Assembly (NCBI GenBank): GCA_964416895.1
Contig: CAYQGB010000001.1
Coordinates: 7,065-71,064, forward strand
Reading direction: 5' to 3'
DNA length: 64,000 bases
Source of the DNA: an uncultured Calditrichaceae bacterium
GTDB lineage: Bacteria; Calditrichota; Calditrichia; RBG-13-44-9; J075
The notes beneath the pieces were generated by a model. That model saw only the letters and a list, made by a program, of their open reading frames with translations. It had not been told where the DNA came from and did no database searches. Made by a program: the position numbers and the translations under genes. This document shows, in pieces, positions 1 to 12,475 of the stretch. How positions within the stretch are numbered: position 1 is the stretch's first letter; each line of letters begins with the position of its first letter.

Positions 1-1413
1 GGCCATCTGGTGCTCAGCACCCTGCACACCAACGATGCCTTCGCCACCCTTACCCGCCTGATGGATATGGGAGTGGATGCGGTGAAAGCCGGAGAAGCCA
101 TCCAGGCAGTGATTGCCCAGCGGCTGGTACGGCGCCTGTGCCCCCAATGCCGCCTGGAAACCGAACCGGATGAAATGGAAAAAAAGCTCATCCCGTTGAT
201 GAAGCGGCTCAACTGTGAACCCCGCTTCTTCCGGGCCAGGGGATGTCCCCATTGTGGATTTACCGGATATAAGGGGCGTACCGGGGTGTACGAAATCCTC
301 ATTCTGGACAATGACCTGAAGGCCATGATCCTGCGGCAAGCCCCCCTGTATGAGGTGCGCAAGGCCGCCCGGGAAAAGGGATTTCGCAATCTGTACGAAG
401 ATGCCCTGAACCTGATCAGCGAGGGCATCACCGATTATCGGGAAGTGCTGCGGGTGATTCATCCCGACAGTGATCAGGCGGTGGAACTGGAGGCGATGGA
501 GCCGGTATCGGCAGCCCCGGCGCCGGCGGAGGAACCGTTGCAGGAAGTAAAACCCCCGACAGAGGAAGCCCCGCTCCCGGTCACAGAGCGCGAATCTCTC
601 GCGGAGGCGCCGCCCCCCGACACCGCCCGGAGCGAATCGGCATCGGCCACCCTCTTGCTGGTGGAAGACAGCCGCACGCTGCGCGCCATCGCTCGAAAAT
701 TCCTGGAAGCCAAAACCAACTGGAAGGTACTGGAAGCCGCCGATGGCCTGGAGGGCCTGAACGTCCTGGAACACCATTCGGTGGATGCCATCGTGCTGGA
801 TTTGAAAATGCCCCACATGGACGGGTTCGAGTTTCTGGAACGCATCCGGGGAAATCCTTCCACGGCCGGGATCCCGGTGGTGATTCTGTCGGGGATGGAA
901 GGAGAATACATCACCCGGGGCATGAAACTGGGCGCGGACGACTATCTCATCAAGCCGTTCGACGGGCAGGCCCTGATCGAGAAAATACGAAATCTTCTGG
1001 ATCGCTCCCGCATCTTGATTGTGGAAGATAACAAGACCATGCGCAAGATGGCCCGGCGGATCATCGAAAAGAAGACCGCCTGGCAGGTGTACGAGGCGGA
1101 AGACGGCCTTCAGGCCCTGGAATTCCTCAAAGATCACCCGGTGGACGCCATCGTGCTGGATCTAATGATGCCCAATATGGACGGATTCGAGTTTTTGCAG
1201 CATCTCCGATTTAACCCGGAGACCGCGCTGATCCCGGTGCTGATCGTCACCGCTCTGGAAGGAGAGGACAGCGAACTCAAGAGTCTGGAGCTGGGAGCAG
1301 ATGACTACCTGGTAAAGCCCTATAAAGCCAGTATTTTAATTGCCCGCCTGCGACGGCTGCTGGAACGGGCCGGGGAAATCCGGCAAAAGGGGAAATCCGT
1401 TAAAGCCGCCTGA
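1..1413 (+). CDS. pilB: Type IV pilus / T2SS assembly ATPase (PilB/GspE family), C-terminal part (5' end lies outside the window), fused to two tandem CheY-like receiver (REC) domains
   Basis: Frame 1 translation begins GHLVLSTLHTNDA, the conserved GspE/PilB C-terminal motif. It is followed by the tetracysteine zinc-finger CPQC...CPHC-GFTGYKGRTGVYEIL. A P/E/A-rich linker then leads to two ~120 aa modules with the canonical REC signatures (VED...IVLDLKMP...ILSG...YLIKPF and IVED...IVLDLMMP...IVTA...YLVKPY). The ORF is open to position 1. Confidence 0.85.
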   Translation, partial: GHLVLSTLHTNDAFATLTRLMDMGVDAVKAGEAIQAVIAQRLVRRLCPQCRLETEPDEMEKKLIPLMKRLNCEPRFFRARGCPHCGFTGYKGRTGVYEILILDNDLKAMILRQAPLYEVRKAAREKGFRNLYEDALNLISEGITDYREVLRVIHPDSDQAVELEAMEPVSAAPAPAEEPLQEVKPPTEEAPLPVTERESLAEAPPPDTARSESASATLLLVEDSRTLRAIARKFLEAKTNWKVLEAADGLEGLNVLEHHSVDAIVLDLKMPHMDGFEFLERIRGNPSTAGIPVVILSGMEGEYITRGMKLGADDYLIKPFDGQALIEKIRNLLDRSRILIVEDNKTMRKMARRIIEKKTAWQVYEAEDGLQALEFLKDHPVDAIVLDLMMPNMDGFEFLQHLRFNPETALIPVLIVTALEGEDSELKSLELGADDYLVKPYKASILIARLRRLLERAGEIRQKGKSVKAA

Positions 1414-1461: not shown

Positions 1462-2232
1462 ATGGAAGTCCTGTTAGGGATCACCGGGGCGGTGATCGGC
1501 AGCTTTTTGAATGTATGCATCTATCGGATTCCCAGAGGGCAATCGCTGATCCGCCCGGGTTCCCGATGCCCCTCCTGCCTGACTCCCATCCCCTTTTATC
1601 TCAACGTGCCCATTCTTTCGTATGTGATGCTGCGGGGCCGGTGCCATGCCTGCCGACGGCCAATCCCTTCACGCTATCCTCTGGTAGAAATTATTTCCGC
1701 CGCCTTAACCCTGGCCACCTACTGGCGGTTCGGGTTGACCGCTCCGTTTTTCTTCTACCTGATTTTCATCTACTTCCTGATCGTGATCAGCTTTATCGAT
1801 CTGGATACTCAATTGATCCATAACCGCCTGCTGCTGACGCTGCTGATCAGTGGGGTGGTATTGAACGCCGTGTTAGCGGTACATCCCTGGAAGGAGAGTT
1901 TCCTGGGATTCCTGGTGGGCGGGGGCACCCTGCTGGCCTGCGCGATTCTGGGAAAACTGCTTTTCCACAAAGAGGCCCTGGGCATGGGGGATGTCAAGCT
2001 GGCCGCCGTGGCAGGCTTCTTTCTGGGATGGAAAATGGTGGTGTACGCTCTGGGGTTTTCCTTTTTCCTCACCTTAATCCTGCTGATTCTGGCCCTGCCG
2101 TTTACTCGGTGGCGATGGGGGCAGTATATCCCCTTCGGACCGTTTCTGGCCCTGGGATGGATCATCTTTGTGTACTGGGGATCGCAACTGGTTCGATGGT
2201 ACTGGCAATATCTCATCGTGTATCCGGGATGA
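1462..2232 (+). CDS. pilD: Prepilin peptidase (A24 family, PilD/GspO)
   Basis: N-terminal Zn-binding CPSC...CHAC domain. Polytopic membrane profile. The GMGDVKLAAVAGFFLGW motif is typical of PilD. GGAG lies 6 nt upstream of ATG 1462; TTG 1450 is the alternative start. Confidence 0.85.
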   Translation: MEVLLGITGAVIGSFLNVCIYRIPRGQSLIRPGSRCPSCLTPIPFYLNVPILSYVMLRGRCHACRRPIPSRYPLVEIISAALTLATYWRFGLTAPFFFYLIFIYFLIVISFIDLDTQLIHNRLLLTLLISGVVLNAVLAVHPWKESFLGFLVGGGTLLACAILGKLLFHKEALGMGDVKLAAVAGFFLGWKMVVYALGFSFFLTLILLILALPFTRWRWGQYIPFGPFLALGWIIFVYWGSQLVRWYWQYLIVYPG

Positions 2233-2243
2233 CGGAGGAGGAT

Positions 2244-3443
2244 ATGCCCAATTTTAAGTATAAAGCCATTGACCCGGAGGGCAAAATCTTAGAAAGCCAG
2301 CTCAGCGCGGCGGATAAGATTGAGGTCATCCAGCAACTGCGCAACCTCAATCTGGTCACGCTGGAAATCCATAAAGCCGAAAAAACCGGGCCTAAGGCGG
2401 GTCGAAAAAATATCAAGAAAAAGCAGCTTATCCAGTTCACCAAGCAACTGCACACCCTGTTGAAGGCGGGGATCCCGGTTGTGCAATGCCTGCAATTGAT
2501 CCGGGAACAGCATGAGGAGCCGGCGTTTCAGGCGGTGGTAGAAGCACTGGCGACGAAGGTGAGCCAGGGAAGTGCCCTGTCGGAAGCGATGAGCGCTTTT
2601 CCCAAACTGTTTCCGCCCATCTACGTGAACTCGGTGCGAATCGGCGAGATCAGCGGCACCCTCGACGACACCCTGGCCTATCTGTACCGCTATCTGGAAG
2701 ATGAAGAGCAAATTCGCAAGGACGTGAAGAAAGCGCTGCGCTATCCCACGATTGTGCTTCTGGCGATTATCGGGGCGTTCGTGGTGTTCGTCAGCTTCGT
2801 GATCCCCGCCTTCAAACCCATATTCGAGATGACCGGCGCAGAACTCCCCCTGCCCACCCGGATTCTTCTGGGAATTAGCGATCTGGTCACCCACCACGGC
2901 TTGTTGCTGCTGGTGGGGGTTGGATTAAGCACGGCGGGAATCCTGTACTACAAACGCACTCCCGCCGGCCGGGCCCTGTTCGACCGGTGGATGCTGCGGC
3001 TGCCTCTGGTGGGAGAATTCGTGAAGAAAGTGGCCCTGACCCGGTTCGCCAAGATTTTCCACACCCTCAACCGTACCGGCGTGCCGGTGGTGCAGGCGTT
3101 TGAGATGCTGGCCGAGGCCATGGAAAATACGGTCTATCAGCAGGAATTGAGGAAAGTGCTGGAATACATGAAAGCGGGGGAAGGCATCGCCGCCTCCCTG
3201 GCGAAAAGCCCTTACTTCAGCCATTTGATGATCGAGATGATCACCATCGGGGAACGCTCCGGCTCCCTGGATGAAATGCTGGAAACCGTAATTCAGCACT
3301 ACGAACGAGAAGTCAGCGACGCCCTGCAGCGCCTGACCGCCTCCATCGAACCCATTACCACGGTGTTGATCGGAGGAATGGTGCTATTCCTGGCGCTGTC
3401 GGTATTGCTGCCATTGTGGGACACCATGATGCTGGTAAAATAA
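2244..3443 (+). CDS. pilC: Type IV pilus / T2SS inner-membrane platform protein (PilC/GspF family)
   Basis: About 400 aa with two GspF-type repeats (LxxGxP...TLDxxL motifs) and three TM segments. GGAGGAGG lies just upstream of ATG 2244. It overlaps the pilD stop, which suggests translational coupling. Confidence 0.85.
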   Translation: MPNFKYKAIDPEGKILESQLSAADKIEVIQQLRNLNLVTLEIHKAEKTGPKAGRKNIKKKQLIQFTKQLHTLLKAGIPVVQCLQLIREQHEEPAFQAVVEALATKVSQGSALSEAMSAFPKLFPPIYVNSVRIGEISGTLDDTLAYLYRYLEDEEQIRKDVKKALRYPTIVLLAIIGAFVVFVSFVIPAFKPIFEMTGAELPLPTRILLGISDLVTHHGLLLLVGVGLSTAGILYYKRTPAGRALFDRWMLRLPLVGEFVKKVALTRFAKIFHTLNRTGVPVVQAFEMLAEAMENTVYQQELRKVLEYMKAGEGIAASLAKSPYFSHLMIEMITIGERSGSLDEMLETVIQHYEREVSDALQRLTASIEPITTVLIGGMVLFLALSVLLPLWDTMMLVK

Positions 3444-3512
3444 AAAAGGAGTCTGCCACATGGAGTGGCGGAACAGCTTCACCCCAAAACCCAATACAAG
3501 GAGGTAGTTGCT

Positions 3513-3866
3513 ATGATCGCATTACGCAGTCAGAAGGGTTTCACCATGCTGGAACTGGTGATCGTGCTGGTGATTATCGCCACGCTGGCCGGTATCGGTG
3601 TGCCCAAATATCTGAGCATGCAGAAGCAGGCCCAGATTGCCGCGGATAAGGCCAACCGGGCAGCCATCCAGACCGCCATCATGAATCGGTATGTGGATAA
3701 GATCAATCGGGGCGACAGAGTGACCATGCAGGATATTGTCAACCAGTTCAACAGCAATCCCAATTCCTTCTTCCCCACCGGGAAAGTTCCCAATCCGCCC
3801 ACGGATATTAAGAAGCGCTATAAAGCCCGGATTCGGAACGATCGCATCGAAGTCTACATCCAGTAG
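3513..3866 (+). CDS. Type IV pilin / major pseudopilin with class III signal peptide
   Basis: N-terminus MIALRSQKG|FTMLELVIVLVIIATLAGIGVP is a prepilin cleavage/methylation motif: G at -1, F at +1, E at +5, followed by a hydrophobic helix. AAGGAGG lies 8 nt upstream of the ATG. The protein is about 118 aa. Confidence 0.8.
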   Translation: MIALRSQKGFTMLELVIVLVIIATLAGIGVPKYLSMQKQAQIAADKANRAAIQTAIMNRYVDKINRGDRVTMQDIVNQFNSNPNSFFPTGKVPNPPTDIKKRYKARIRNDRIEVYIQ

Positions 3867-3869
3867 AGG

Positions 3870-4298
3870 ATGAGGGTGCAGAGGGCAGTTGGAAAGCTGC
3901 TGCATGCTGCCGGGATGGAGCAGGGTCTATCTCTGTTGGAGATGGTGGTCATCATCGCCATCGCAGGGGTTACCCTGCCCATCCTGTTTTTATCCTTTGG
4001 TCAGGCCAATCAAACTCACCTCCAGAATCGGGTGATGCGGCAGTGCGTTAGCCTGGCCGCCAGCCGTATGGAACAGATCATCGCGTTCAAAGAAAACACG
4101 CCCGGTTGGGAAACCACGATTCAGCAATTCGCCGCAACGGAGGTGATCGACAGCCTCTATGTGCGGGAGACCCGGATAGCTCCCATCACCGGATGGGGCA
4201 GTGCCAACCTGAAGGCGGTGGAAGTTCAGGTGCGGGTGACGCATCCGGCGCTATCCGGGGGGTACTCACTGGTGTTGAGACTGAGAGAATCCGGCTAA
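3870..4298 (+). CDS. Minor pilin / pseudopilin (GspH/I-like), prepilin-type N-terminus
   Basis: QG|LSLLEMVVIIAIAG motif with E at +5 and a hydrophobic helix. The start is either ATG 3870 or ATG 3915. It sits directly after the pilin gene. Confidence 0.6.
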   Translation: MRVQRAVGKLLHAAGMEQGLSLLEMVVIIAIAGVTLPILFLSFGQANQTHLQNRVMRQCVSLAASRMEQIIAFKENTPGWETTIQQFAATEVIDSLYVRETRIAPITGWGSANLKAVEVQVRVTHPALSGGYSLVLRLRESG

Positions 4299-4307
4299 CA
4301 TCCGGCT

Positions 4308-4793
4308 ATGAAAACTTCTCCGGAAAAAGCGGTCAATGCCCGGGGGGCTACTCTGCTGGAAGTGGTGGTGGCTCTGAGCGTGGGCCTGACGCTTCTGACC
4401 GTACTGGTCCAGGTGGTTTTTCTAAGCAGTCGGGCGTATTCCCGGCTATATCAGGAGGCCCTGTGGATGGTCGATGTGCAGGAAGCCCAGCGATTGCTGT
4501 ATCGGGATTTGCAGCCGCTCTCCCCCGGAGATGTTCAGCAAATGGAAGAGGGGCGATTGGTGTTTACCGGTTCCGGGGGAGAGCAGGTGACCTATAGCTT
4601 TGAGGATAGCGCCCTGGTACGCAACGATGACGTGCTGGTGAAATTTTTGAAACGCTGGCCCCTGGAATATCTGGATGCTTCCGGGCAATCCACCACTCAA
4701 CCGGCGAACCTGACCTTTGTCCGGATTCACTGGGAAATTGAAAACGGGGGCTGGCGCCTTGAGCTGGAAGAGGATCTCTACGTGCGCAATTGA
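4308..4793 (+). CDS. Minor pilin / pseudopilin (GspJ/PilW-like), prepilin-type N-terminus
   Basis: N-terminus MKTSPEKAVNARG|ATLLEVVVALSVGLTLL matches the prepilin peptidase recognition pattern. Size is about 160 aa. Confidence 0.6.
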   Translation: MKTSPEKAVNARGATLLEVVVALSVGLTLLTVLVQVVFLSSRAYSRLYQEALWMVDVQEAQRLLYRDLQPLSPGDVQQMEEGRLVFTGSGGEQVTYSFEDSALVRNDDVLVKFLKRWPLEYLDASGQSTTQPANLTFVRIHWEIENGGWRLELEEDLYVRN

Positions 4794-4858
4794 GGTCGGG
4801 GGGGTGAATCCCGGAGTGTTCCAGAAAACCGGGGAGTACAGGGAAAAACCAAAGGATT

Positions 4859-4914
4859 GCAAATTTTAAAGTGCAAAATGCAAAGTGCAAAACGCAACAG
4901 GCAACAGGCAACAT
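4859..4914 (+). repeat. Degenerate heptanucleotide tandem repeat (8 x 7 bp): gcaaatt ttaaagt gcaaaat gcaaagt gcaaaac gcaacag gcaacag gcaacat
   Basis: Read directly from the sequence. It lies at the 5' end of, and inside the N-terminal coding part of, the GspK/PilX-like ORF. Confidence 0.7.
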
Positions 4915-5396
4915 CAGGGTTGAGAAACGAGAACCGGGGATTTGGAAAAATATTTTGGGTTCCAAAATGCCGGTCAGGATTATCCGGCCAGCAAGGCAGC
5001 ATCCAGTTGTTGATGCTGGTGTGGATCGTGATTCTGTCTGCGTTTTTCCTGGCCCTGTCCCGGTTTATCCATTCCGAAACCGAGGGACAGTTTTTTCAGG
5101 CCCGGGAGCGTAAGGCGTTCTATGCCGCGCAATCGGGGCTGGAATACGGGATCGGGCGCTTCCTCCGCAGCGATCCGGCCCAACTCTCCGATTGGAGCGA
5201 GACGGTAGACACCGGGGATTCCACCACCTGCGAGGTGATCGCCCGGCTGTTGCCGGGCAACCGGGCCTTAATTCAGGCTACCGGCCACGTGGAGGCCTAT
5301 AGCCGTTCGCTTCAGGTGCAAATTCAATATCGCAATCCCGGCGGGGGCGCCCCGATTCAGATTGAGCAGATCATCTGGAAGTATGTGGGGTGGTAG
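4878..5396 (+). CDS. GspK/PilX-like minor pilin (no Glu at +5); start codon uncertain
   Basis: The segment ...SGQQG|SIQLLMLVWIVILSAFFLALSRF resembles GspK/PilX N-termini (RQRG|VALLxVLxxL, lacking E5). The only in-frame starts are TTG 4857 and ATG 4878, and both lie within the heptad repeat. The gene sits between the pseudopilins and pilM. Confidence 0.45.
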   Translation: MQSAKRNRQQATSGLRNENRGFGKIFWVPKCRSGLSGQQGSIQLLMLVWIVILSAFFLALSRFIHSETEGQFFQARERKAFYAAQSGLEYGIGRFLRSDPAQLSDWSETVDTGDSTTCEVIARLLPGNRALIQATGHVEAYSRSLQVQIQYRNPGGGAPIQIEQIIWKYVGW

Positions 5397-5702
5397 GACG
5401 GGCATCTCTGCCTGTCGCAGCAACGGTCGCTTTTTCGGTAAACTTCACGGCTTCTTTGAGCATTCTGCGGTTGGATAGCATAAACCAGTTGATAAGGGAC
5501 AAAATTGGCGGCAGCGACACTCCATAAACCGACCATTGAATCACCCGGGGAAGAAACGGCGCTTCGTCCCCCTCCGGAACAGACCGGGGAAATCCCCCGG
5601 AGCACCAACGGGCATTTGACCGTATCCGGGAGTGAGGGAACCGTTTCCCCGGTAGAGCCGATAGTGGTCGGTTTCGGGGGACGTTTTTCCCAACCCCTTC
5701 GC

Positions 5703-7331
5703 ATGCTGTCCCGTGACTATCTTGCCGTCGATCTCCATCACGACCGCCTTCAATACGTACATTTCCAGAAGTTTCGCGCCGCGTTACGGGCGGTGGATTT
5801 CGGGGAGATGGCTCTGCCCCGGGAGTGGATCGGCGATCCCGCCGCCCTCACCGAAGCGCTCCGGGGGCTGCCGGAAGTGGCCCGTAAGGCATCCACCATA
5901 CTGACGGTGGGCTATTTCAGCCCCGCCATGCACCTGCGGGAAGTGGTACTGCCGGAGATCAAACGCCCCGCCGATCTGGTTCGGGCTATCGGGTTTCAGA
6001 ATACTCACGACCTCCCCCCGATTGACGGCCCGGTGGATTGCTGCTATCAAATCGTGGAAACCTTTACCGACGGGAGCCTGAAAAAGCAGCGTCTTCTGGT
6101 GCTGGTGGTTCCCCGTTCGGTGACCGACACCTGCTTAACCGCCTTCATCGACGCCGGGGCCGTTCCCACCCGGTTAATCCCCCGCCCGTTCCTGTTTCAG
6201 GAAGCGTATCGCCGGTTCGTGTCTGCACCGGGGAACGATCTGCTGGTGGAAGTCTCGGAACATTGCAGCACGATCGCCTATTTCCACCACGGGCAATTGC
6301 GATACCTCCGCACCGTGCCGGTGGGGTTTGTGCACATGGATCAAAGTGAATTGCACGCCCGCTCCCTAACCATCGATCCGGATGAACTGGCCCAGCAGGC
6401 GGAGGAAAATGTGTATCCGGAAACGATGGCCGAATCCGACGCCCTGCGGCGGCGATTGCAGCAAAAACTGGCCGAATTGCAGAGCCATCGGAACCCGGCT
6501 TTGCAGCGGTTATACGGGGAAATCTGGCGAACCCTGAAAAACCTTCCCGACGCTTCCTTTGAGCGAATTCTGCTGGCCGGATACGGCGGTCAGGTTCCCC
6601 CCCTGGCCCCTTTCCTGGGAACCATGTTTCACCGCCCCGTGAGCATCCTGGCCCCCCAATTTGATGAACCGGGAGAAGCTTCCCTTTACGCCCAGGGGCA
6701 ATACCTGTTGTCCATCGGCGCGGTGCTCACCGATAGCAAAACGGTGGATCTGCTTCCTTCCCAATACCGGCAACAGCGCACCTATCGCAAATTAAACAAG
6801 TGGCTGCTCATCTGGATGGGGCTGACCCTGGCGGGAATCGGAGCGATCTCCTTTCTGGGCAATCCCTCCCTGCAAATGCGGCAGGAGTTGCTGACCGAAT
6901 ATCAACAGCGGGTAGAACAACTGGAGGCCATCGAAACCGACTACCACCGCCTGTTGAAGGAACTGGAAGCCACCCGGAAGCAAAAGGAGGAGCTGCTAAG
7001 CGCCATCCCCCGGGATGATACCATTCTGCAAATGCTTCGCCTGTTCAGCCGGGAAACGCCCGGAGACATTCGGCTGCGCCGGCTGGAGATTTTCCCGGTG
7101 GAAGCGGAAACCCGGGAGAAAGCAAACGGCTCCCAAAAGCCGGCCGCCGACCACTACGAAATTCGAGTGGAAGGGCAAATTATCGACAACTACTTTCTGG
7201 CCGATCTGGTTTTGCTTAACTACATCAACCATCTGAACAGTTTACAGGTGTTCCGAAGCATTGAATTGCAGCAGGTACACAAGGAACCGGAAGAAAAACG
7301 GTTTGAATTTCAGATAAGCGCCCGGTTATGA
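5703..7331 (+). CDS. PilM-PilN fusion protein (actin-like PilM domain plus TM/coiled-coil PilN domain; GspL-like architecture)
   Basis: The N-terminal domain begins LAVDLHHDRLQYVHF (PilM-like actin fold). A TM helix KWLLIWMGLTLAGIGAISFLG is followed by a coiled-coil typical of PilN/GspL. The ORF is open from 5505; ATG 5703 was chosen with no clear SD. Confidence 0.7.
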   Translation: MLSRDYLAVDLHHDRLQYVHFQKFRAALRAVDFGEMALPREWIGDPAALTEALRGLPEVARKASTILTVGYFSPAMHLREVVLPEIKRPADLVRAIGFQNTHDLPPIDGPVDCCYQIVETFTDGSLKKQRLLVLVVPRSVTDTCLTAFIDAGAVPTRLIPRPFLFQEAYRRFVSAPGNDLLVEVSEHCSTIAYFHHGQLRYLRTVPVGFVHMDQSELHARSLTIDPDELAQQAEENVYPETMAESDALRRRLQQKLAELQSHRNPALQRLYGEIWRTLKNLPDASFERILLAGYGGQVPPLAPFLGTMFHRPVSILAPQFDEPGEASLYAQGQYLLSIGAVLTDSKTVDLLPSQYRQQRTYRKLNKWLLIWMGLTLAGIGAISFLGNPSLQMRQELLTEYQQRVEQLEAIETDYHRLLKELEATRKQKEELLSAIPRDDTILQMLRLFSRETPGDIRLRRLEIFPVEAETREKANGSQKPAADHYEIRVEGQIIDNYFLADLVLLNYINHLNSLQVFRSIELQQVHKEPEEKRFEFQISARL

Positions 7332-7894
7332 AAAAGATTGCCCTGAAACCACAGCGAGTATTTTTGATTCTGGTGATAGGATATATCCTCGGGCTGGGAG
7401 GTTGGTACCTGCTGGTGTATCAGCCCAGAGTACTGGAGGGCCGGGAGATGGATACCGCCTGGGAACAGATTCATCAGGTGCTGGAACGGGTGAACCTGGC
7501 CCTGCACTCCCTGGAAACCACCCGCAAAACGTTGCAGCAGGAAAAAACCGAACTGGCCAACATCCGGGCCGGTTTTATCCGCAGCCAGCACCTTTCCACG
7601 TTTACCCGGTCGGTAGAGGAACTGGCTCAAACCCATCGGTTGAAGCTGGTGGATTTCAGCCCGGCGGTGGAGAATTTTCTTCAGGATTCGGTGAAGACTC
7701 CCGTGCGCCCACTTCCGCTGTCGATGGTGGTGGAAGGACGGTATCTCGACATCGGCGCGTTTCTGGAAGCGTGGCAAAACTTCCCCGTTTATGTGACCAT
7801 CGAAGGCATCGCCATCGAGAAGGTAGAAGGTTCTCCGGTGCGGGTACGGGCAACCGTTCGGGCCAGGTTGTACACCCTGGAGGAACAAGGATGA
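7328..7894 (+). CDS. PilO/GspM-like inner-membrane pilus assembly protein
   Basis: 188 aa with an N-terminal TM segment (VFLILVIGYILGLGGWYLLVY) and a periplasmic coiled-coil plus ferredoxin-like region. Its position between pilMN and pilP fits. The ATG overlaps the pilMN stop (ATGA). Confidence 0.55.
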   Translation: MKKIALKPQRVFLILVIGYILGLGGWYLLVYQPRVLEGREMDTAWEQIHQVLERVNLALHSLETTRKTLQQEKTELANIRAGFIRSQHLSTFTRSVEELAQTHRLKLVDFSPAVENFLQDSVKTPVRPLPLSMVVEGRYLDIGAFLEAWQNFPVYVTIEGIAIEKVEGSPVRVRATVRARLYTLEEQG

Positions 7895-8382
7895 GCGGCG
7901 GTTTCCAGAACATGACCCGGGGCCAGAAGCGGAGCCTTATCCTCCTGCTGCTGGTGCTGGCCTACGGGGTATTCGATTTCATCACCAATCGAGAGGATTA
8001 TCTGGCCTTTTACGCCGGGGAGAAAACCGCCCTGGATATGGCTCTGGACTCCCTGAAGCAAGAAGGGGAAACCCCGGTGGATTCCACGGCCACAGAAGAG
8101 GCGCCGGTTACCACTGTGGTGTACACCGGGGAATGGGGTGAGGATCCCTTTGCCCTTCCGGCCAGGCCTTCCCGTGCCCGAAAGGCTCCTCCGGCGCAGA
8201 AGAGGCGGTTTCGTCTGCGGTTGCGAGGCGTCAGCATCAGTCAGACCCGCTCGGTGGCGCTGATTAACAACGCCGTGGTCAAAGAGGGCGAATACATCGG
8301 GCCGTACCGGGTGGTCAAGATATATCCCGATCGGGTGGTGTTAACCAATGGGCGTGAGCGACGGGTGTTAACGGTGGAATGA
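7891..8382 (+). CDS. PilP/GspC-like protein
   Basis: MSGGFQNMTRGQKRSLILLLLVLAYGV is a signal-anchor. The C-terminus RLRGVSISQTRSVALINNAVVKEGEYIGPYRVVKIYPDRVVLTNGRERRVLTV matches the PilP/GspC secretin-interacting domain pattern. GGAGG lies upstream and the ATG overlaps the pilO stop. Confidence 0.6.
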   Translation: MSGGFQNMTRGQKRSLILLLLVLAYGVFDFITNREDYLAFYAGEKTALDMALDSLKQEGETPVDSTATEEAPVTTVVYTGEWGEDPFALPARPSRARKAPPAQKRRFRLRLRGVSISQTRSVALINNAVVKEGEYIGPYRVVKIYPDRVVLTNGRERRVLTVE

Positions 8383-8437: not shown

Positions 8438-9739
8438 ATGACAGAGATGCGGGCAATACAACGAGGCTGGTGGATGGTGCTGATGGTGCTGCTGGTGGGC
8501 ATTCCCCTTCTGGCCGAGAATCTTACCGAGAAGCTCAATCGTCGGGTCTCGCCCAATTTTGTGAACGCCTCCATTCGGGACATCCTGCGCGCCTTTGCCC
8601 GACAGTATGATCTGAACATCGTCATCGGAAAAGACGTTACCGGAACCGTCACCCTGCAATTGAAGAACGTCACCCTGCAGGATGCCCTGGATGTGCTCCT
8701 GAAATCCCAGGGGTATCGGTACATCGTGGATAACGAGGTCATCCTGGTGAAAGGTCCCACCAGCATCGCCAGCGACGAGTTGTCCACCCGGGTGATCAGG
8801 TTGGTGTATCTGGACGGGTATCAACTGCAAAAAACCCTGCAGCCGCTTCTGTCCGAGCGAGGGCAGATCGAGGCGCTGGTACTGGAAAAAGGAGACGGCG
8901 ATTCCGAACCCCGCTCCGATGCCCTGGTGGTCACCGATCTGCGGGAGAACGTGGAGAATATTGTGGCAGTGGTGAATCAATTAGACGTGCCCAGCCCCCA
9001 GCTCCAGATCGAAGTGCGCCTGGTGGAAACGGTGCTGGATGATGAAAAACGGGTGGGGCTGAAACTCCCCACTTCCATTCAGGTTTCGGCCACCGGGGCG
9101 GAGCAAAGTAAGGATGAAACCTCTTCGGAATCCTCCATCAGTCAGGGCAATCCCCTGGCGGCGACTTATGAACCGCCGGATCCCAACAGCCGGATTAATC
9201 TGGGCATACTCACGCTATCGGAGCTACAGGCGGCCCTGGAAGCGCTGGATAAGGATCAGAATTCCCGGCTGATTTCCAGCCCCCGGGTAACCACCCTGAA
9301 CAACCGCCGGGCTTTGATCAAAATCGGCACCGTGGTGCCGGTGCAGGAAATTTCCCGGGGAGTGGGCGGAGACCTGATCTCCTTCCGGGAAAAAGAGGTG
9401 AACCTCAATCTGGAAGTGATTCCCCGCATTAACCGGGACAGGCAGATTACCCTCACGGTGCATCCCATTCTGGAAGAGATCATCGGGTTCACCGGCCCAC
9501 CGGATGCCCCCCAACCGATCACCTCCAAGCGAGAAGTGGAAACCACCGTCACCGTGCAGGATGGGGAGACCGTGGTCATCGGAGGACTGATCAAAGAGAC
9601 CGAGAACAAGACGGTGGAAAAAGTATGGCTGTTAGGCGACATTCCCCTCCTGGGCTATCTGTTCCGCCACACCACCACCAAAAAGCAAAAAACCGATTTG
9701 CTGATTTTCATTACTCCCAAGATCATAACTCAGGAGTAA
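8438..9739 (+). CDS. Secretin (PilQ/GspD family), short form of about 433 aa
   Basis: N0-like domain (VNASIRDILRAFARQYDLNIVIGKDVTGTVTLQLKNVTLQDALDVLL). C-terminal secretin domain (VTTLNNRRALIKIG...VIGGLIKETENKTVEKVWLLGDIPLLGYLFRHTTTKKQKTDLLIFITPKII). GGAG RBS present. No AMIN-like N-terminal extensions are evident. Confidence 0.85.
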   Translation: MTEMRAIQRGWWMVLMVLLVGIPLLAENLTEKLNRRVSPNFVNASIRDILRAFARQYDLNIVIGKDVTGTVTLQLKNVTLQDALDVLLKSQGYRYIVDNEVILVKGPTSIASDELSTRVIRLVYLDGYQLQKTLQPLLSERGQIEALVLEKGDGDSEPRSDALVVTDLRENVENIVAVVNQLDVPSPQLQIEVRLVETVLDDEKRVGLKLPTSIQVSATGAEQSKDETSSESSISQGNPLAATYEPPDPNSRINLGILTLSELQAALEALDKDQNSRLISSPRVTTLNNRRALIKIGTVVPVQEISRGVGGDLISFREKEVNLNLEVIPRINRDRQITLTVHPILEEIIGFTGPPDAPQPITSKREVETTVTVQDGETVVIGGLIKETENKTVEKVWLLGDIPLLGYLFRHTTTKKQKTDLLIFITPKIITQE

Positions 9740-9746
9740 ACGGATC

Positions 9747-10772
9747 ATGAAAACATTGTCCGAGATTCTCCACTTCGCCATACAGAACAACGCCTCCGAT
9801 GTGCACCTGAGCAGCGGCATGTATCCCATGCTCCGGGTGCTGGGGAAGATCAAGAGCGTGACCGACGAGCCGATTCCTCACCGGCAACTGGAACAGATGC
9901 TCAGGGAGATTCTGGATGAGGAGCAGCGGCAAAAGTTCGAGAACCGGGAAGATATCGACTTTTCCTTCACCATGCCGGGAGTGGCCCGGGTGCGGGTGAA
10001 CATCTTCCATCACTTTGAAGGGATCAGCGCGGCCTTTCGGGTACTTCCCTCTCGAATTCGGTCCCTGGAAGAACTGCACATGCCTCCGGTGCTCAAAGAA
10101 TTGTGCAAGCGCAAGAAAGGGATGATTCTGGTCACCGGCCCCACCGGCAGCGGAAAGTCCTCCACTCTGGCCGCCATGATCCATCAGATCAACATGACCC
10201 GCAGCGAGCACATCATCACCATCGAAGACCCCATCGAATACGTGCACGCTTCCAAATACAGCATCATTCATCAGCGGGAGGTGGGTACCCACACCCGGGG
10301 GTTCGCCGAAAGTCTGCGCAGCGCCCTGCGGGAAGATCCGGACATCATTTTAGTGGGAGAGATGCGGGATCTGGAAACCATCTCCCAGGCCCTGACCGCC
10401 GCCGAAACCGGGCATCTGGTGCTCTCCACCCTGCACACCAATTCCGCCCCGGAAACCATCGACCGGATTGTGGATGCATTTCCCGGAGAGCAGCAGACCC
10501 AGATCCGGGTACTGCTGGCCAACGTGCTGGTGGCGGTGATCTCCCAGCGGCTGATCCCCATGCAGTTCAAACAGGATCGCATCGCCCTGATGGAGATTCT
10601 GATCGGATCCAAAGCGGTGGGGAATCTCATCCGGGAGGGAAAATCCCATCAATTGAGCACGGTGATGCAGACCGGCAGCGAATTTGGCATGCAAACGTTT
10701 GAGCAGCACTTCAAGAAGCTGGTGCAGCAGAACCTGGTGTCGCCCAATCTGAATCTGGGGGATTATCTATAA
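9747..10772 (+). CDS. pilT: Twitching-motility / pilus retraction ATPase (PilT family)
   Basis: 341 aa. Walker A GPTGSGKSST. The motifs LVLSTLHTN and GNLIREGK are PilT/PilU signatures. AGGAG RBS present. Confidence 0.85.
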   Translation: MKTLSEILHFAIQNNASDVHLSSGMYPMLRVLGKIKSVTDEPIPHRQLEQMLREILDEEQRQKFENREDIDFSFTMPGVARVRVNIFHHFEGISAAFRVLPSRIRSLEELHMPPVLKELCKRKKGMILVTGPTGSGKSSTLAAMIHQINMTRSEHIITIEDPIEYVHASKYSIIHQREVGTHTRGFAESLRSALREDPDIILVGEMRDLETISQALTAAETGHLVLSTLHTNSAPETIDRIVDAFPGEQQTQIRVLLANVLVAVISQRLIPMQFKQDRIALMEILIGSKAVGNLIREGKSHQLSTVMQTGSEFGMQTFEQHFKKLVQQNLVSPNLNLGDYL

Positions 10773-11134: not shown

Positions 11135-12475
11135 TTATCGCCCACAGCACTTTTTGAATTTTCTCCCACTGCCACAGGGGCAGGGATCGTTCCGGCCCAC
11201 CCGTACCGAGGAAAAACCGCGATCTTTTTCTCCGGCCCAGATCATCACTCCGACTGCCGACCGCCCGGCCCGTAGTTCACGGGCCATAAACCGCATGTAC
11301 GGATCAATGTGCTTGAAAAATTTTTTATAACCGGCACAGAGGTAATTCAATCCCTCTTCCCCGTCCGGGGTTTTCAAGAAGCGGTGCTTGGGGCACTCGC
11401 CGTTGCAGGCAAAACGCACCTCGCAATTCCGGCAATATTGAGGTAGGGCATCCTTTTTATCCCGGCCAAATTTCTGCTGCTGAGGCGAATCTACCAGAGC
11501 GGCCAGCGGTTGCTCCAGAATGTTCCCCAGTCGATTCTCCGGATACACATAGTGATCGCAGGAGTAGAGGTCGCCGTTGTGCTCCAGCGCCAGAGCACGA
11601 CCGCAGGTTTCCCGGAACACACACAATCCCTGGGGTTTTCCCAGCCAGCTTTCCAGGCTCACCTCAAACAGGTTCACCACTACCTCCCCCACATCCCGGC
11701 GCACCCACTCATCGAAAATGGTGACAAGAAAATCGCCCCACTGCTCCGGTTCTACCGACCACTCGGCAACCTCGCACTCCCCGGGGGTATCCGGCTTTAC
11801 CAGGTGCAACTGATTCGGCAAGCCCCTTCTGGCCACCCGCTCCACCAGAGGAATAAACTGAATAAATCCGCTGCCAATCTCTTTGAGAAACCGATACACC
11901 TCCAGTGGATAGCGAGAATTTTCCCGATGCACCACGGTTAACGTGTTGAACTCTACCCGATGCCTTTTGAGTACCTCCAGACCGCGCATCACCTGATCGA
12001 AAGTCGGGCGTCCCCCCTTGTTCACCCGATAGCGATCATGCAACTCCCGGGGGCCGTCAATGGACAGCCCCACCAGGAATTTCTCCCGGGCCAGAAATTC
12101 GCCCCATTCGTCATTCAACAGGATGCCGTTGGTTTGCAAGGTATTTTCATACCGACGCCCATTTGCATATTTTTTCTGAAGCGCCACCACTTTGCGAAAA
12201 AAGTCCACTCCCAGCAAGGTAGGCTCGCCTCCCTGCCAGCCGAACACTTCCACCGCGGCGGTGCCGGATTCCATCTTTTGCCGGATGAAAGATTCCAGCA
12301 CCGCTTCGGACATCGCCCACTCGGTTTGCTCCGGATAGAGTTTCTCTTTTTCCAGATAGAAACAGTACCGGCAATCCAGATTGCAAATCGGCCCGGTGGG
12401 TTTGATCATCACATGAAAGGGCCTGGTGCGCAAGGGATTGGTCAAATTATCCATTGGCTCATCATGTTTAAGCAA
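11135..12475 (-). CDS. Anaerobic sulfatase-maturating enzyme (radical SAM / SPASM) with C-terminal SEC-C-like metal-binding motif
   Basis: CNLDCRYC radical SAM cluster motif. Cys-rich SPASM region (CVFRETCGRALALEHNGDLYSCDHYV, CRNCEVRFACNGECPKHRF). C-terminal NDPCPCGSGRKFKKCCGR. The start is TTG 12475 or ATG 12454. Confidence 0.85.
   Translation of the reverse strand: MLKHDEPMDNLTNPLRTRPFHVMIKPTGPICNLDCRYCFYLEKEKLYPEQTEWAMSEAVLESFIRQKMESGTAAVEVFGWQGGEPTLLGVDFFRKVVALQKKYANGRRYENTLQTNGILLNDEWGEFLAREKFLVGLSIDGPRELHDRYRVNKGGRPTFDQVMRGLEVLKRHRVEFNTLTVVHRENSRYPLEVYRFLKEIGSGFIQFIPLVERVARRGLPNQLHLVKPDTPGECEVAEWSVEPEQWGDFLVTIFDEWVRRDVGEVVVNLFEVSLESWLGKPQGLCVFRETCGRALALEHNGDLYSCDHYVYPENRLGNILEQPLAALVDSPQQQKFGRDKKDALPQYCRNCEVRFACNGECPKHRFLKTPDGEEGLNYLCAGYKKFFKHIDPYMRFMARELRAGRSAVGVMIWAGEKDRGFSSVRVGRNDPCPCGSGRKFKKCCGR

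What the first reader, a model, noticed from the sequence alone, without database searches (positions are those of the whole stretch)
1..1413. Pilus/secretion assembly ATPase (PilB/GspE) with two C-terminal tandem receiver domains
The ORF carries the complete conserved C-terminus of a GspE/PilB ATPase (LSTLHTNDA, tetracysteine Zn finger). It then continues in frame through an acidic Pro-rich linker into two full receiver domains.

Both REC domains keep the canonical acidic pocket, the phospho-acceptor Asp in the I-V-L-D-L context, the conserved Ser/Thr, and the Lys in the KP motif. They are therefore likely to be phosphorylatable rather than pseudo-receivers.

A phosphorelay input wired directly into the extension motor would be an unusual architecture. 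Regulation of T4P ATPases is normally through separate proteins such as PilZ or FimX, or the N-terminal MshEN domain.
Basis: partly seen in the sequence, partly recalled or inferred. Interest (0 to 1): 0.7.

Follow-up and report, generated by a model that had tools for sequence, protein, structure and literature searches.

The report
Pilus motor ATPase with twin receivers
The window opens inside a real gene for a type IV pilus extension motor whose tail carries two intact phosphorylation-receiver domains; the one-receiver form is common but unstudied in Calditrichota and related phyla, and this two-receiver form is a lineage-specific duplication.

Summary
Window 1-1413 (+) is one uninterrupted frame. 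It encodes the last ~155 aa of a PilB/GspE ATPase, a ~60-aa disordered Glu/Pro/Ala linker, and two complete CheY-like receivers with all catalytic residues.

An overlapping MAG contig (L001, Calditrichaeota) supplies the N-terminus. The full protein is ~878 aa: MshEN-T2SSE-linker-REC1-REC2.

It is the first gene of an 11-gene operon that is syntenic across Calditrichota. The operon ends in a bona fide PilT retraction ATPase, so the machine is a retractile T4aP-like pilus rather than a classical T2SS.

The ATPase-REC fusion is not rare. All 119 other best database hits carry one C-terminal REC, and they include Gemmatimonadota, Zixibacteria and deltaproteobacterial members.

The second REC here is a lineage-specific tandem duplication. 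REC2 keeps the ancestral family signature and REC1 has diverged. An unrelated relative (P0131) independently evolved three C-terminal RECs and sits next to an Hpt gene.

No paper describing the C-terminal fusion was found. N-terminal REC-MshEN-T2SSE is catalogued (Wang 2016).

Most likely mechanism (inferred): two-component phosphorylation of tethered receivers gates pilus extension, an in-cis analogue of PixG/PixH or PilG/PilH.

Verdict: a new variant of a known kind, of moderate interest.

The parts
1..465 (+). C-terminal ~155 aa of a PilB/GspE-type (T2SSE) ATPase. Includes the His box GHLVLSTLHTNDA (nt 1-39) and the tetracysteine CPQC...CPHC (Cys47/50/82/85, nt 139-255). The gene starts upstream of the window.
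   Evidence: Pfam PF00437 6.3e-35, profile 236-370/370. Closest solved chains are PilF of T. thermophilus, GspE of V. cholerae and PilB of Geobacter. pLDDT 89-98. The N-terminus was recovered from L001.
466..645 (+). Disordered Glu/Pro/Ala-rich tether between the ATPase and the receivers.
   Evidence: 59-aa linker with E12, A11, P11. pLDDT below 50 over residues 168-182, 187-189 and 191-214. In 74 homologs where both anchors could be located, linkers are 28-105 aa (median 57) and E/P/K/A-rich.
646..999 (+). REC1, a receiver domain (aa 216-333) with phospho-acceptor Asp267 (nt 799-801). It is the diverged copy of a tandem duplication.
   Evidence: Pfam Response_reg. CheY D12/D13/D57/T87/K109 equivalents are E/D/D/S/K. 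(beta-alpha)5 fold with pLDDT 72-87. 52% identical to REC2 and a mean of 40% to homolog RECs. Family signature positions are changed: D+2 M to K, and alpha4 E/K to I/R.
1009..1365 (+). REC2, a receiver domain (aa 337-455) with phospho-acceptor Asp387 (nt 1159-1161). It is the counterpart of the single REC of the family.
   Evidence: CheY equivalents are E/D/D/T/K. pLDDT 95-98. It is closer than REC1 to the homolog REC in 113 of 119 cases. MAFFT aligns the homologs' REC onto it, with D387 invariant. It keeps family signature residues M at D+2 and E/K in alpha4.
1366..1413 (+). Short basic C-terminal extension of REC2 helix alpha5, plus the stop codon. It lacks the hydrophobic C-terminal tail motif found in most homologs.
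   Evidence: Translation. Helix 443-469. Tail motif present in 77 of 107 full-length homologs.
1462..2232 (+). Prepilin peptidase (PilD/GspO-like).
   Evidence: Pfam A24_N_bact 2.3e-33 and Peptidase_A24 6.4e-21. ATG at 1462 preceded by GGAG.
2229..3443 (+). Platform protein GspF/PilC. The probable start ATG at 2229 overlaps the peptidase stop.
   Evidence: Pfam T2SSF, 2 stretches, 2.3e-60. NCBIfam GspF 345 bits and PilC 310 bits, both below cutoff, with alignment starting at ORF aa 73-76. Homologs are 399-403 aa.
3465..5396 (+). Four small pilin-like genes (3465-3866, 3870-4298, 4308-4793, 4857-5396). The first three have G|F/L/A-x-x-L-E prepilin leaders.
   Evidence: Pfam N_methyl 3e-07, and weak GspG/H/I hits below cutoffs. 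Leader sequences seen in translations.
5505..8382 (+). Alignment/assembly subcomplex: a 608-aa PilM-like protein (5505-7331), PilO-like (7328-7894), and a small protein with weak GspC similarity (7891-8382).
   Evidence: NCBIfam pilM and Amuc_1101 weak hits. Pfam PilO 2.5e-08. T2SSC/GspC weak hits at E about 3-6e-4. Same order in L002, L003, L004 and L166.
8438..9739 (+). Outer-membrane secretin (PilQ-like, with an STN domain).
   Evidence: Pfam Secretin 1.9e-45 and STN. NCBIfam PilQ 263 bits (cutoff 284) against GspD 225 bits.
9747..10772 (+). PilT/PilU-family retraction ATPase, the last gene of the operon.
   Evidence: TIGR01420 pilT_fam 467.1 bits, above the curated cutoff of 319.1. Conserved at this position in L002, L003, L004 and L166.

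Best explanation
The window starts at codon ~409 of an ~878-aa PilB-type extension ATPase: MshEN-T2SSE-disordered linker-REC1-REC2. This is the first gene of a Calditrichota-wide, 11-gene, retractile type IVa-pilus-like operon.

Shown here:
- The fusion is real and in frame.
- Both receivers are structurally complete and keep every residue needed for Asp phosphorylation.
- The single-REC version is the conserved ancestral state of this motor.
- The second REC is a lineage-specific tandem duplication. REC2 retains the family-specific surface and D+2 signature, and REC1 has diverged at those positions.
- The receivers hang on a flexible 28-105-aa tether in the homologs measured.

Inferred:
- A histidine kinase phosphorylates the tethered receiver(s). 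In this organism the candidate is the divergently transcribed REC-PAS x3-HisKA-HATPase_c protein immediately upstream.
- The phosphorylation-induced change on the alpha4-beta5-alpha5 face switches the receiver's contacts. These contacts could be with the ATPase hexamer, with neighbouring protomers, or with the PilM/PilC platform. The switch turns pilus extension on or off, or recruits the motor.
- This would do in cis what free response regulators do in trans (phospho-PixG on PilB1, PilG/PilH).
- In the twin-REC form, REC2 is the output receiver. REC1 is a second input or a phosphate sink that tunes REC2 phosphorylation.
For: - Open frame and domains.
- Catalytic residues kept in REC1, REC2 and ~118 of 119 homologs.
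- Two (beta-alpha)5 folds and a disordered linker.
- Foldseek top hits are the PleD tandem REC and PilF/PilB.
- Full-length reconstruction, MshEN + T2SSE at 447 bits.
- All 119 other best hits have exactly one C-terminal REC.
- REC1 and REC2 are sisters in an NJ tree, and REC2 is nearer the family REC in 113 of 119 cases.
- Family signature retained in REC2 only.
- Operon synteny in L002, L003, L004 and L166.
- PilT above the curated cutoff.
- Adjacent divergent kinase.
- Independent triple-REC relative P0131, preceded by an Hpt gene and a MshEN-REC gene.
- Published precedent that only phosphorylated PixG binds PilB1, with PixH acting as a sink: PMC11181946.
- c-di-GMP motif absent in this protein and in 106 of 107 full-length homologs, leaving REC as the obvious regulatory input.
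Against: - No experiment or structure shows that REC phosphorylation affects this ATPase. The tool returned no inter-domain confidence, so REC docking could not be assessed.
- The kinase adjacency is not conserved. L002 and L003 have a PAS-kinase-REC gene 5 kb away with unrelated genes between. L004 and L166 have none within 10 kb. The cognate kinase is therefore unknown.
- The twin-REC form was found only in this window. No second assembly covers the RECs, because L001 ends in the linker, and neither collection scan found a close relative.
- The output/sink division of labour rests on a handful of substituted positions.
- The N-terminal 408 aa come from a different, 99.2%-identical assembly.
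Confidence: 0.65

Rival explanations
1. The machine is a type II secretion system. The REC-bearing ATPase is a GspE, so phosphorylation gates protein secretion rather than pilus extension.
For: The one-operon E-O-F-pseudopilins-L/M-like-C-like-D layout is T2SS-like. NCBIfam scores GspF above PilC for the platform protein (345 against 310 bits). The pilin-like genes hit GspG/H/I models, and a small protein hits GspC weakly. The C-terminal ATPase fragment alone scores GspE 159 bits against PilB 143 bits. The window is rich in secreted glycoside hydrolases and sulfatases.
Against: A PilT/PilU-family retraction ATPase passes its curated cutoff and is the conserved last gene of the operon in every Calditrichota locus examined. 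From established knowledge, classical T2SSs lack PilT. The full-length ATPase scores PilB 558 bits against GspE 546 bits. The secretin scores PilQ 263 bits against GspD 225 bits. A PilO domain is present. All GspE/F/G/H/I/C hits are below their curated cutoffs. Several of the neighbouring hydrolases carry T9SS-type C-terminal domains.
Confidence: 0.15
2. The receivers are phosphorylation-independent scaffolds. They act as localisation or protein-docking modules, as proposed for the FimX REC domain.
For: The long flexible tether suits a recruitment module. No conserved cognate kinase lies next to the operon. FimX-type REC domains that act without phosphorylation are documented (PMC11656802).
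Against: Phosphorylation-independent RECs typically lose the acidic pocket. FimX lacks the conserved Asp. Here D13, D57, T/S87 and K109 equivalents are kept in both copies and in ~118 of 119 homologs across several phyla, which indicates selection on phosphotransfer chemistry. The triple-REC relative sits next to an Hpt gene.
Confidence: 0.12
3. The fusion or the second REC is an artefact. Either it is a metagenomic mis-assembly or frameshift joining separate genes, or the repeat was wrongly expanded.
For: The sequence is metagenome-derived. The overlapping public contig L001 breaks inside the linker. No second assembly spans REC1-REC2.
Against: The ATPase-linker-REC junction lies inside the window in one frame and recurs in 119 independent homologs with conserved downstream synteny. 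REC1 and REC2 are only 52% identical at protein level and 68% at DNA level over 218 nt. That is far too diverged to arise from repeat mis-assembly. Both copies retain intact folds and catalytic residues.
Confidence: 0.03

Closest known systems
PilB / PilF type IVa pilus extension ATPases (Geobacter PilB 5TSG/5TSH/5ZFR; Thermus PilF 5IT5/5OIU/6EJF) and GspE (V. cholerae 4KSR/1P9R)
   Same: The His box, tetracysteine Zn motif and C-terminal domain fold match (Foldseek rmsd 2.0-3.5 A, 32-38% identity). The full-length protein has MshEN + T2SSE. It sits in an operon with prepilin peptidase, PilC/GspF, pilins, secretin and PilT.
   Different: It scores below both the curated PilB and GspE equivalog cutoffs. 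It carries a ~60-aa disordered tether and two receivers after the point where those proteins end.
REC-MshEN-T2SSE (e.g. Geobacter metallireducens Gmet_3473) and MshEN-T2SSE-cNMPbind (Desulfotalea DP2226), catalogued by Wang et al. 2016 (PMC5013675, Suppl. Table 4)
   Same: These are signalling domains fused directly to a T2SSE pilus/secretion ATPase. They show that direct sensory wiring of these motors is a known, though uncharacterised, theme.
   Different: There the REC is N-terminal and single. A C-terminal REC, single or tandem, is not in that table. None of these fusions has been studied experimentally, as far as the library searches show.
Free response-regulator pairs acting on PilB: PixG/PixH on PilB1 in Synechocystis, and PilG/PilH in Pseudomonas aeruginosa
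   Same: Phosphorylated REC proteins bind or activate the extension motor. A second REC acts as antagonist or phosphate sink (PMC11181946). The two-receiver logic matches the twin REC here.
   Different: Those regulators are separate proteins fed by CheA-type kinases. PixG acts through a PATAN output domain. Here the receivers are covalently tethered to the motor, with no other output domain and no chemosensory genes nearby.
PleD tandem receiver (REC-REC-GGDEF; 1W25, 2V0N, 9G85)
   Same: PleD is the best structural and sequence match for the REC-REC unit (Foldseek E 5e-18, and NCBIfam PleD model as top hit). The two receivers are directly abutting.
   Different: From established knowledge, PleD's second REC is a pseudo-receiver adaptor that lacks the phospho-acceptor. 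Here both copies keep it. The output is an upstream ATPase, not a downstream GGDEF domain. The relative domain orientation is not matched (TM 0.25, rmsd ~13 A).
MshE-type c-di-GMP-regulated ATPases
   Same: An N-terminal MshEN domain is detected (Pfam 66.5 bits).
   Different: The published relaxed 24-residue c-di-GMP motif is absent in this protein and in 106 of 107 full-length homologs.

Membership tests
T2SSE (PilB/GspE/PilT) secretion-ATPase superfamily, PF00437 | Pfam domain above the gathering score, with His box and C-terminal domain | tested here: met
   The window fragment scores 120.9 bits (cutoff 24.9), covering profile 236-370/370. The reconstructed full-length protein scores 447.5 bits. 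The His box LSTLHTNDA is at nt 13-39.
T2SSE (PilB/GspE/PilT) secretion-ATPase superfamily, PF00437 | Walker A (GPTGSGKS/T) and Walker B/Asp boxes | tested here: met
   GPTGSGKST and DPDVILVGEIRD are present in the upstream part recovered from L001/P0011. They lie outside the window itself.
PilB/GspE extension-ATPase subgroup | Tetracysteine CxxC...CxxC zinc motif in the C-terminal domain | tested here: met
   C47-P-Q-C50 and C82-P-H-C85. These four Cys are invariant in the 82-sequence alignment.
Type IV-A pilus assembly ATPase PilB equivalog (TIGR02538) | Score at or above the curated cutoff of 675.65 | tested here: not met
   558.5 bits for the ATPase part. It is the best-scoring model but falls below the cutoff.
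Type II secretion ATPase GspE equivalog (TIGR02533) | Score at or above the curated cutoff of 630.25 | tested here: not met
   546.3 bits.
CheY-like receiver domain (PF00072), phosphorylatable class | Acidic pair, phospho-acceptor Asp, Thr/Ser and Lys (CheY D12/D13, D57, T87, K109) | tested here: met
   REC1 has E/D, D267, S, K. REC2 has E/D, D387, T, K. Pfam scores 190.6 bits in two stretches.
CheY-like receiver domain (PF00072), phosphorylatable class | (beta-alpha)5 fold | tested here: met
   The AF2 model shows five strand-helix units in each copy. Foldseek matches to CheY and RR468 have rmsd 0.7-1.5 A.
CheY-like receiver domain (PF00072), phosphorylatable class | Actual phosphotransfer from a kinase or small-molecule donor | not testable with these tools
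   This needs biochemistry.
Type IVa pilus system (versus T2SS) | Dedicated PilT-family retraction ATPase | tested here: met
   Window 9747-10772 scores TIGR01420 467.1 bits against a cutoff of 319.1. The gene is syntenic in four other loci.
Type IVa pilus system (versus T2SS) | PilQ secretin and PilM/N/O/P alignment complex | tested here: inconclusive
   PilQ scores 263 bits against a cutoff of 284. PilM matches are weak. The PilO Pfam domain is met at 34.6 bits against a cutoff of 22. No PilN or PilP was recognised.
Classical type II secretion system | GspF, GspG-K, GspC/L/M equivalogs above cutoff, and no PilT | tested here: not met
   GspF scores 345 bits against a cutoff of 424. GspG scores 39 against 88.85. 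GspH, GspI and GspC hits are far below cutoff. PilT is present.
MshE-type c-di-GMP receptor ATPases | Tandem 24-residue RLGxx(L/V/I)(L/V/I)xxG...LxxxLxxQ motifs (relaxed pattern from PMC5013675) | tested here: not met
   There is no match in the first 200 aa of the reconstructed protein, and a match in only 1 of 107 full-length homologs. A synthetic consensus sequence used as a control matched twice.
PleD-like tandem receiver (active REC + pseudo-receiver adaptor) | The second REC lacks the phospho-acceptor pocket | tested here: not met
   Both RECs keep the full pocket. The resemblance is limited to the tandem arrangement.

The most novel reading that the evidence does not exclude
Direct two-component control of a type IV pilus extension motor through covalently tethered receivers is the native regulatory mode of the pilus in Calditrichota and occurs in related lineages, taking the place of the degenerate c-di-GMP site. 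C-terminal receiver arrays expanded independently at least twice, to x2 here and x3 in P0131. These arrays build an in-cis push-pull (output plus sink) or multi-input gate on the motor, equivalent to PilG/PilH or PixG/PixH but fused to their target.
Probability: 0.35. Interest if true: 0.6.

Novelty: new variant of a known kind. Interest (0 to 1): 0.45.

Why it matters
How pilus extension motors are switched on, off or localised is an active question. Every characterised case works through separate adaptor proteins (PilZ/FimX, PilG/PilH, PixG/PixH, SgmX/FrzS) or through c-di-GMP binding.

A motor that carries its own phosphorylatable receivers offers a simple system for study. One polypeptide contains both the signal acceptor and the ATPase. 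The coupling between Asp phosphorylation and hexamer activity could therefore be measured in vitro.

The single-REC orthologue exists in a cultivable organism, Caldithrix abyssi. The twin-REC and triple-REC variants are natural experiments on how extra receivers reshape the response.

The practical limits are that this is so far a bioinformatic architecture, common in databases, with no functional data.

Tried and rejected
1. Scans of genome contigs and metagenome contigs with the 470-aa fragment. The automatically chosen peptide patterns included generic REC motifs. The 80 kept loci were therefore mostly unrelated REC-REC proteins. No close relative and no second twin-REC PilB was found. The useful by-product was a Zixibacteria MshEN-T2SSE-REC (L005/L085). 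The Patescibacteria hit (L045/L116) is an ordinary PilB without a fused REC.

2. Looking for a conserved cognate kinase by neighbourhood. The adjacency seen in L001 is not conserved, so it cannot be used as family-level evidence. The remaining ~53 kb of the window contains no HisKA, HATPase_c or Hpt gene.

3. Literature searches for a described PilB/GspE-REC fusion. Only a one-line mention of a 'Pili IV cluster' in Caldithrix abyssi was found, plus the 2016 domain-architecture table, which lists N-terminal REC fusions but not the C-terminal one.

4. AlphaFold2 of the fragment. It confirmed the folds and the disorder. However, it returns no inter-domain error estimates or coordinates, so REC-REC or REC-ATPase docking could not be judged. 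The full-length protein could not be submitted, because its N-terminus comes from outside the window.

5. The exhaustive representative search as a census. The count at E<=1e-30 (3549) mixes fusions with REC-REC hybrid kinases and cannot serve as a family size. Only the top 150 could be parsed: 46 have the ATPase tail, and 45 of those have at least one REC.

6. DNA for the triple-REC protein's contig was not available.

7. The idea that the twin REC is a PleD-type active + pseudo-receiver pair was rejected, because both pockets are intact.
Full report

Yes. Frame 1 of window 1-1413 is open for 470 codons and ends at TGA 1411-1413. Pfam finds the C-terminal end of T2SSE (aa 1-151, profile positions 236-370 of 370, E 6.3e-35) and two Response_reg stretches (E 8.3e-57).

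- The His box GHLVLSTLHTNDA.
- The tetracysteine CPQC...CPHC (Cys47/50/82/85).
- A 59-aa linker rich in Glu, Ala and Pro.

Aligned with E. coli CheY, REC1 has E/D/D/S/Y/K and REC2 has E/D/D/T/Y/K at D12/D13/D57/T87/Y106/K109. The phospho-acceptors are D267 (nt 799-801) and D387 (nt 1159-1161).

An AlphaFold2 model built with 81 homologs shows three things:
- A well-folded ATPase tail (pLDDT 89-98).
- A disordered linker (pLDDT below 50 over most of residues 168-214).
- Two complete (beta-alpha)5 receivers: REC1 at 216-333 with pLDDT 72-87, and REC2 at 337-455 with pLDDT 95-98.

Foldseek against the PDB returns the PleD tandem receiver first (E 5e-18). PilF/PilB/GspE follow for the tail, and CheY-type receivers match at rmsd 0.7-1.5 A.

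**2. The whole gene**

The best database hit, P0011, is 100% identical over the first 167 residues. It is a 3'-truncated 'type II/IV secretion system protein, partial [Calditrichaeota bacterium]'. Its contig is L001 (RFFW01000439.1 of GCA_003695965.1), which overlaps window 1-501 with 4 mismatches.

The deposited gene call starts at GTG L001:4223. An in-frame ATG at 4022 adds 67 residues that align with the N-termini of all homologs.

The reconstructed protein is 878 aa:
- MshEN, aa 66-152.
- T2SSE, aa 179-559, 447.5 bits.
- Linker.
- REC1 and REC2.

The ATPase part scores PilB (TIGR02538) 558.5 bits and GspE (TIGR02533) 546.3 bits. Both are below their curated cutoffs. It is therefore a PilB/GspE-class motor outside both curated equivalogs.

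**3. Genomic setting**

The genes downstream, on the same strand, are:
- Prepilin peptidase (1462-2232).
- GspF/PilC (2229-3443).
- Four small pilin-like genes. Three have G|(F/L/A)xxLE leaders (3465-5396).
- A 608-aa PilM-like protein (5505-7331).
- PilO-like (7328-7894).
- A small protein with weak GspC similarity (7891-8382).
- A PilQ-like secretin with STN domain (8438-9739).
- A 341-aa ATPase (9747-10772) that passes the curated PilT/PilU model, at 467 bits against a cutoff of 319.

The same eleven-gene order, starting with the ATPase-REC gene and ending with the PilT-like gene, is found around homologs P0066, P0086, P0008 and P0083.

The conserved retraction ATPase, the PilB>GspE and PilQ>GspD score order, and the PilO domain favour a retractile T4aP-like machine over a classical T2SS. 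The operon layout and several sub-cutoff Gsp hits do look T2SS-like, though. The only literature trace is a sentence noting a 'Pili IV cluster (Cabys_2584-2567)' in Caldithrix abyssi (PMC5317091).

**4. How common is the fusion?**

All 119 other best hits in the 5.8-billion-protein collection carry PF00437 + PF00072, usually with PF05157. They are mostly 720-820 aa and are mostly labelled Calditrichaeota, Calditrichia or Caldithrix where named.

A domain count shows exactly one REC in each of the 119.

More distant members occur in:
- Gemmatimonadaceae (the P0117 cluster).
- A deltaproteobacterial MAG (P0113).
- Zixibacteria (L005/L085).

In the two loci examined for the Gemmatimonadaceae-type members (L165 for P0117, L167 for P0116), the gene is an orphan between a DUF5686 gene and a NUDIX gene, not part of a pilus operon.

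The exhaustive search of 1.84 billion representatives gave 46 proteins with the ATPase tail among its top 150, and 45 of these carry at least one REC:
- 38 have a single REC.
- 5 have one REC at each end.
- 1 has two N-terminal RECs plus one C-terminal REC.
- 1 (P0131, 1081 aa) has three C-terminal RECs.

P0131's three receivers cluster together in the tree (R1-R2 63% identical). They are 25-40% identical to REC1 and REC2 here. Its array therefore arose independently. Its gene is preceded by an Hpt gene and a MshEN-REC gene.

**5. The second receiver**

REC1 and REC2 are 52% identical in protein, and 68% identical in DNA over 218 nt. That is too diverged to be an assembly artefact.

In a neighbour-joining tree they are sisters, inside a small clade with the RECs of P0008 and P0101. 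REC2 is closer than REC1 to the family REC in 113 of 119 comparisons (mean 50% against 40%). MAFFT places the homologs' REC on REC2.

At positions conserved in at least 87% of the family, REC2 keeps the family residue and REC1 does not:
- D+2: M in the family, K in REC1.
- Two alpha4 surface positions: E/K in the family, I/R in REC1.
- T87: replaced by S in REC1.

All catalytic residues are retained in both copies. The simplest history is a lineage-specific tandem duplication. REC2 continues the ancestral role and REC1 has partly diverged.

**6. Candidate signal input**

On L001 a sensor kinase is transcribed divergently from the ATPase gene. The deposited 996-aa call would overlap the corrected ATPase start. 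A GTG at 3823, preceded by GGAGG, gives a REC-PAS x3-HisKA-HATPase_c protein and a 198-bp divergent intergenic region.

This adjacency is not conserved. L002 and L003 have a PAS-kinase-REC gene 5 kb upstream, behind four unrelated genes. L004 and L166 have none within 10 kb.

The rest of the 64-kb window has no kinase or Hpt gene. It encodes mainly carbohydrate, sulfatase and transport functions.

**7. Other regulatory inputs**

Wang et al. 2016 define the c-di-GMP site of MshEN as two 24-residue motifs and give a relaxed search pattern (PMC5013675). That pattern is absent from the first 200 residues of this protein. It is found in only 1 of 107 full-length homologs. A synthetic consensus control matched twice. 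By this criterion the family is predicted not to bind c-di-GMP, which leaves the receiver as the evident regulatory module.

**8. Mechanism**

Shown:
- The motor carries receivers that are fully competent, by sequence and fold, to be phosphorylated.
- They sit on a flexible tether, measured at 28-105 aa in 74 homologs (median 57).
- The arrangement is conserved across phyla, with near-invariant catalytic residues.

Inferred:
- Phosphorylation of the receiver changes its alpha4-beta5-alpha5 face.
- That alters its contacts with the ATPase ring, with neighbouring protomers, or with the PilM/PilC platform.
- The result is gating or recruitment of the extension motor.

Precedent in trans:
- PilG/PilH behave similarly in Pseudomonas (PMC11181946).

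The twin REC may be a fused version of such a pair, with REC2 as output and REC1 as sink or second input. This last step is the most speculative.

Rivals:
- A T2SS reading.
- Phosphorylation-independent scaffolding.
- An artefact.

Each rival is weighed in the rival-explanations section. None is favoured.

**9. Comparison with what is known, and novelty**

Wang et al. (Suppl. Table 4) catalogue REC-MshEN-T2SSE (Gmet_3473), GAF-MshEN-T2SSE and MshEN-T2SSE-cNMPbind. They do not list MshEN-T2SSE-REC. A 2024 review of PilB regulation mentions no REC-fused PilB (PMC11656802). Five further full-text searches found no description.

The components and the idea of a receiver acting on PilB are known. 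The single-REC fusion is abundant in databases and auto-annotated, but unstudied. The tandem C-terminal REC is a rare variant.

I rate it a new variant of a known kind, with interest 0.45. It is a clean, testable system for how phosphorylation could control a pilus motor. It is not a new kind of machine, and no functional evidence exists yet.

Noticed in passing
Homologs P0001-P0120 (C-termini); absent at window 1366-1410: 77 of 107 full-length single-REC homologs end, after a ~27-aa low-complexity spacer, in a conserved hydrophobic tail: acidic/polar-[LFMVI]-[KRQNS]-[LMIV]-[IVLM...]-COOH (DFKLI, NLKLV, ELQLM, NVNMI). The window protein and the ~720-aa subgroup (P0008, P0083, P0068) lack it. 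It could be a docking peptide. Its function is unknown.
   Followed up: partly
L001 3823-4223 (upstream of the window, other assembly): Both deposited gene calls at the divergent junction look wrong. The ATPase most likely starts at ATG 4022 rather than GTG 4223, which adds 67 conserved residues. The kinase most likely starts at GTG 3823 (GGAGG upstream) rather than ATG 4201. A 1498-aa antisense ORF also runs through the ATPase gene and is spurious.
   Followed up: yes
P0131 (ENA ERZ1426827, 27.9-kb contig; no DNA available): This is a MshEN-T2SSE ATPase with three C-terminal receivers. Two are canonical; the third has D/N in the acidic pair. Its MshEN N-terminus appears by eye to fit the c-di-GMP motif (not run through the pattern search). 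It is preceded by an Hpt gene and a MshEN-REC gene. This is an independent expansion of a receiver array on a pilus-type motor, with a phosphorelay component next door.
   Followed up: partly
P0214, P0219, P0227, P0235, P0243, P0183: These T2SSE ATPases have receivers at both ends (REC-...-T2SSE-REC). One has two N-terminal RECs plus one C-terminal REC. All have canonical pockets where checked.
   Followed up: partly
L165, L167 (P0117 of a Gemmatimonadaceae-named cluster, and P0116): In these two loci the PilB-REC gene is not in a pilus operon. It sits between a DUF5686 gene and a NUDIX gene, with an FHA-GAF-guanylate/adenylate cyclase gene nearby in both loci.
   Followed up: no
Reconstructed N-terminus (L001 4022-4222) and homolog N-termini: The MshEN_N four-helix region is present, but the c-di-GMP-binding motif is degenerate. 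For example, WLVDALIEAGIM replaces RLGxxLLxxGLI. This holds across almost the whole family.
   Followed up: yes
window 11135-12475 (-): A radical SAM/SPASM protein ends in a SEC-C motif immediately after the pilus operon, on the opposite strand. A radical SAM/SPASM gene also lies ~5 kb upstream of the operon in L166.
   Followed up: no
window ~12468-51061 (-): This is a long minus-strand block of glycan and sulfated-glycan utilisation genes. It includes GH31, an FGE-sulfatase/BNR/PA14 protein, a BT_1020-like sialidase-CBM protein, a sulfatase, a TonB-dependent receptor, a GntP permease, an SSF symporter and a LacI regulator. It also includes FG-GAP/ASPIC and LVIVD proteins with FlgD_ig/CHU_C-type (T9SS-like) C-terminal domains.
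   Followed up: no
L001 296-1020 (-): A PIN-domain toxin / PhdYeFM antitoxin pair lies downstream of the sensor kinase.
   Followed up: no
window 4857-5396 and the equivalent position in L002, L003, L004, L166: The fourth pilin-like gene of the operon varies greatly in size between genomes: 179 aa here, against 299, 341, 558 and 562 aa elsewhere. It has no family hit, and is possibly a variable tip or GspK-like minor pilin.
   Followed up: no
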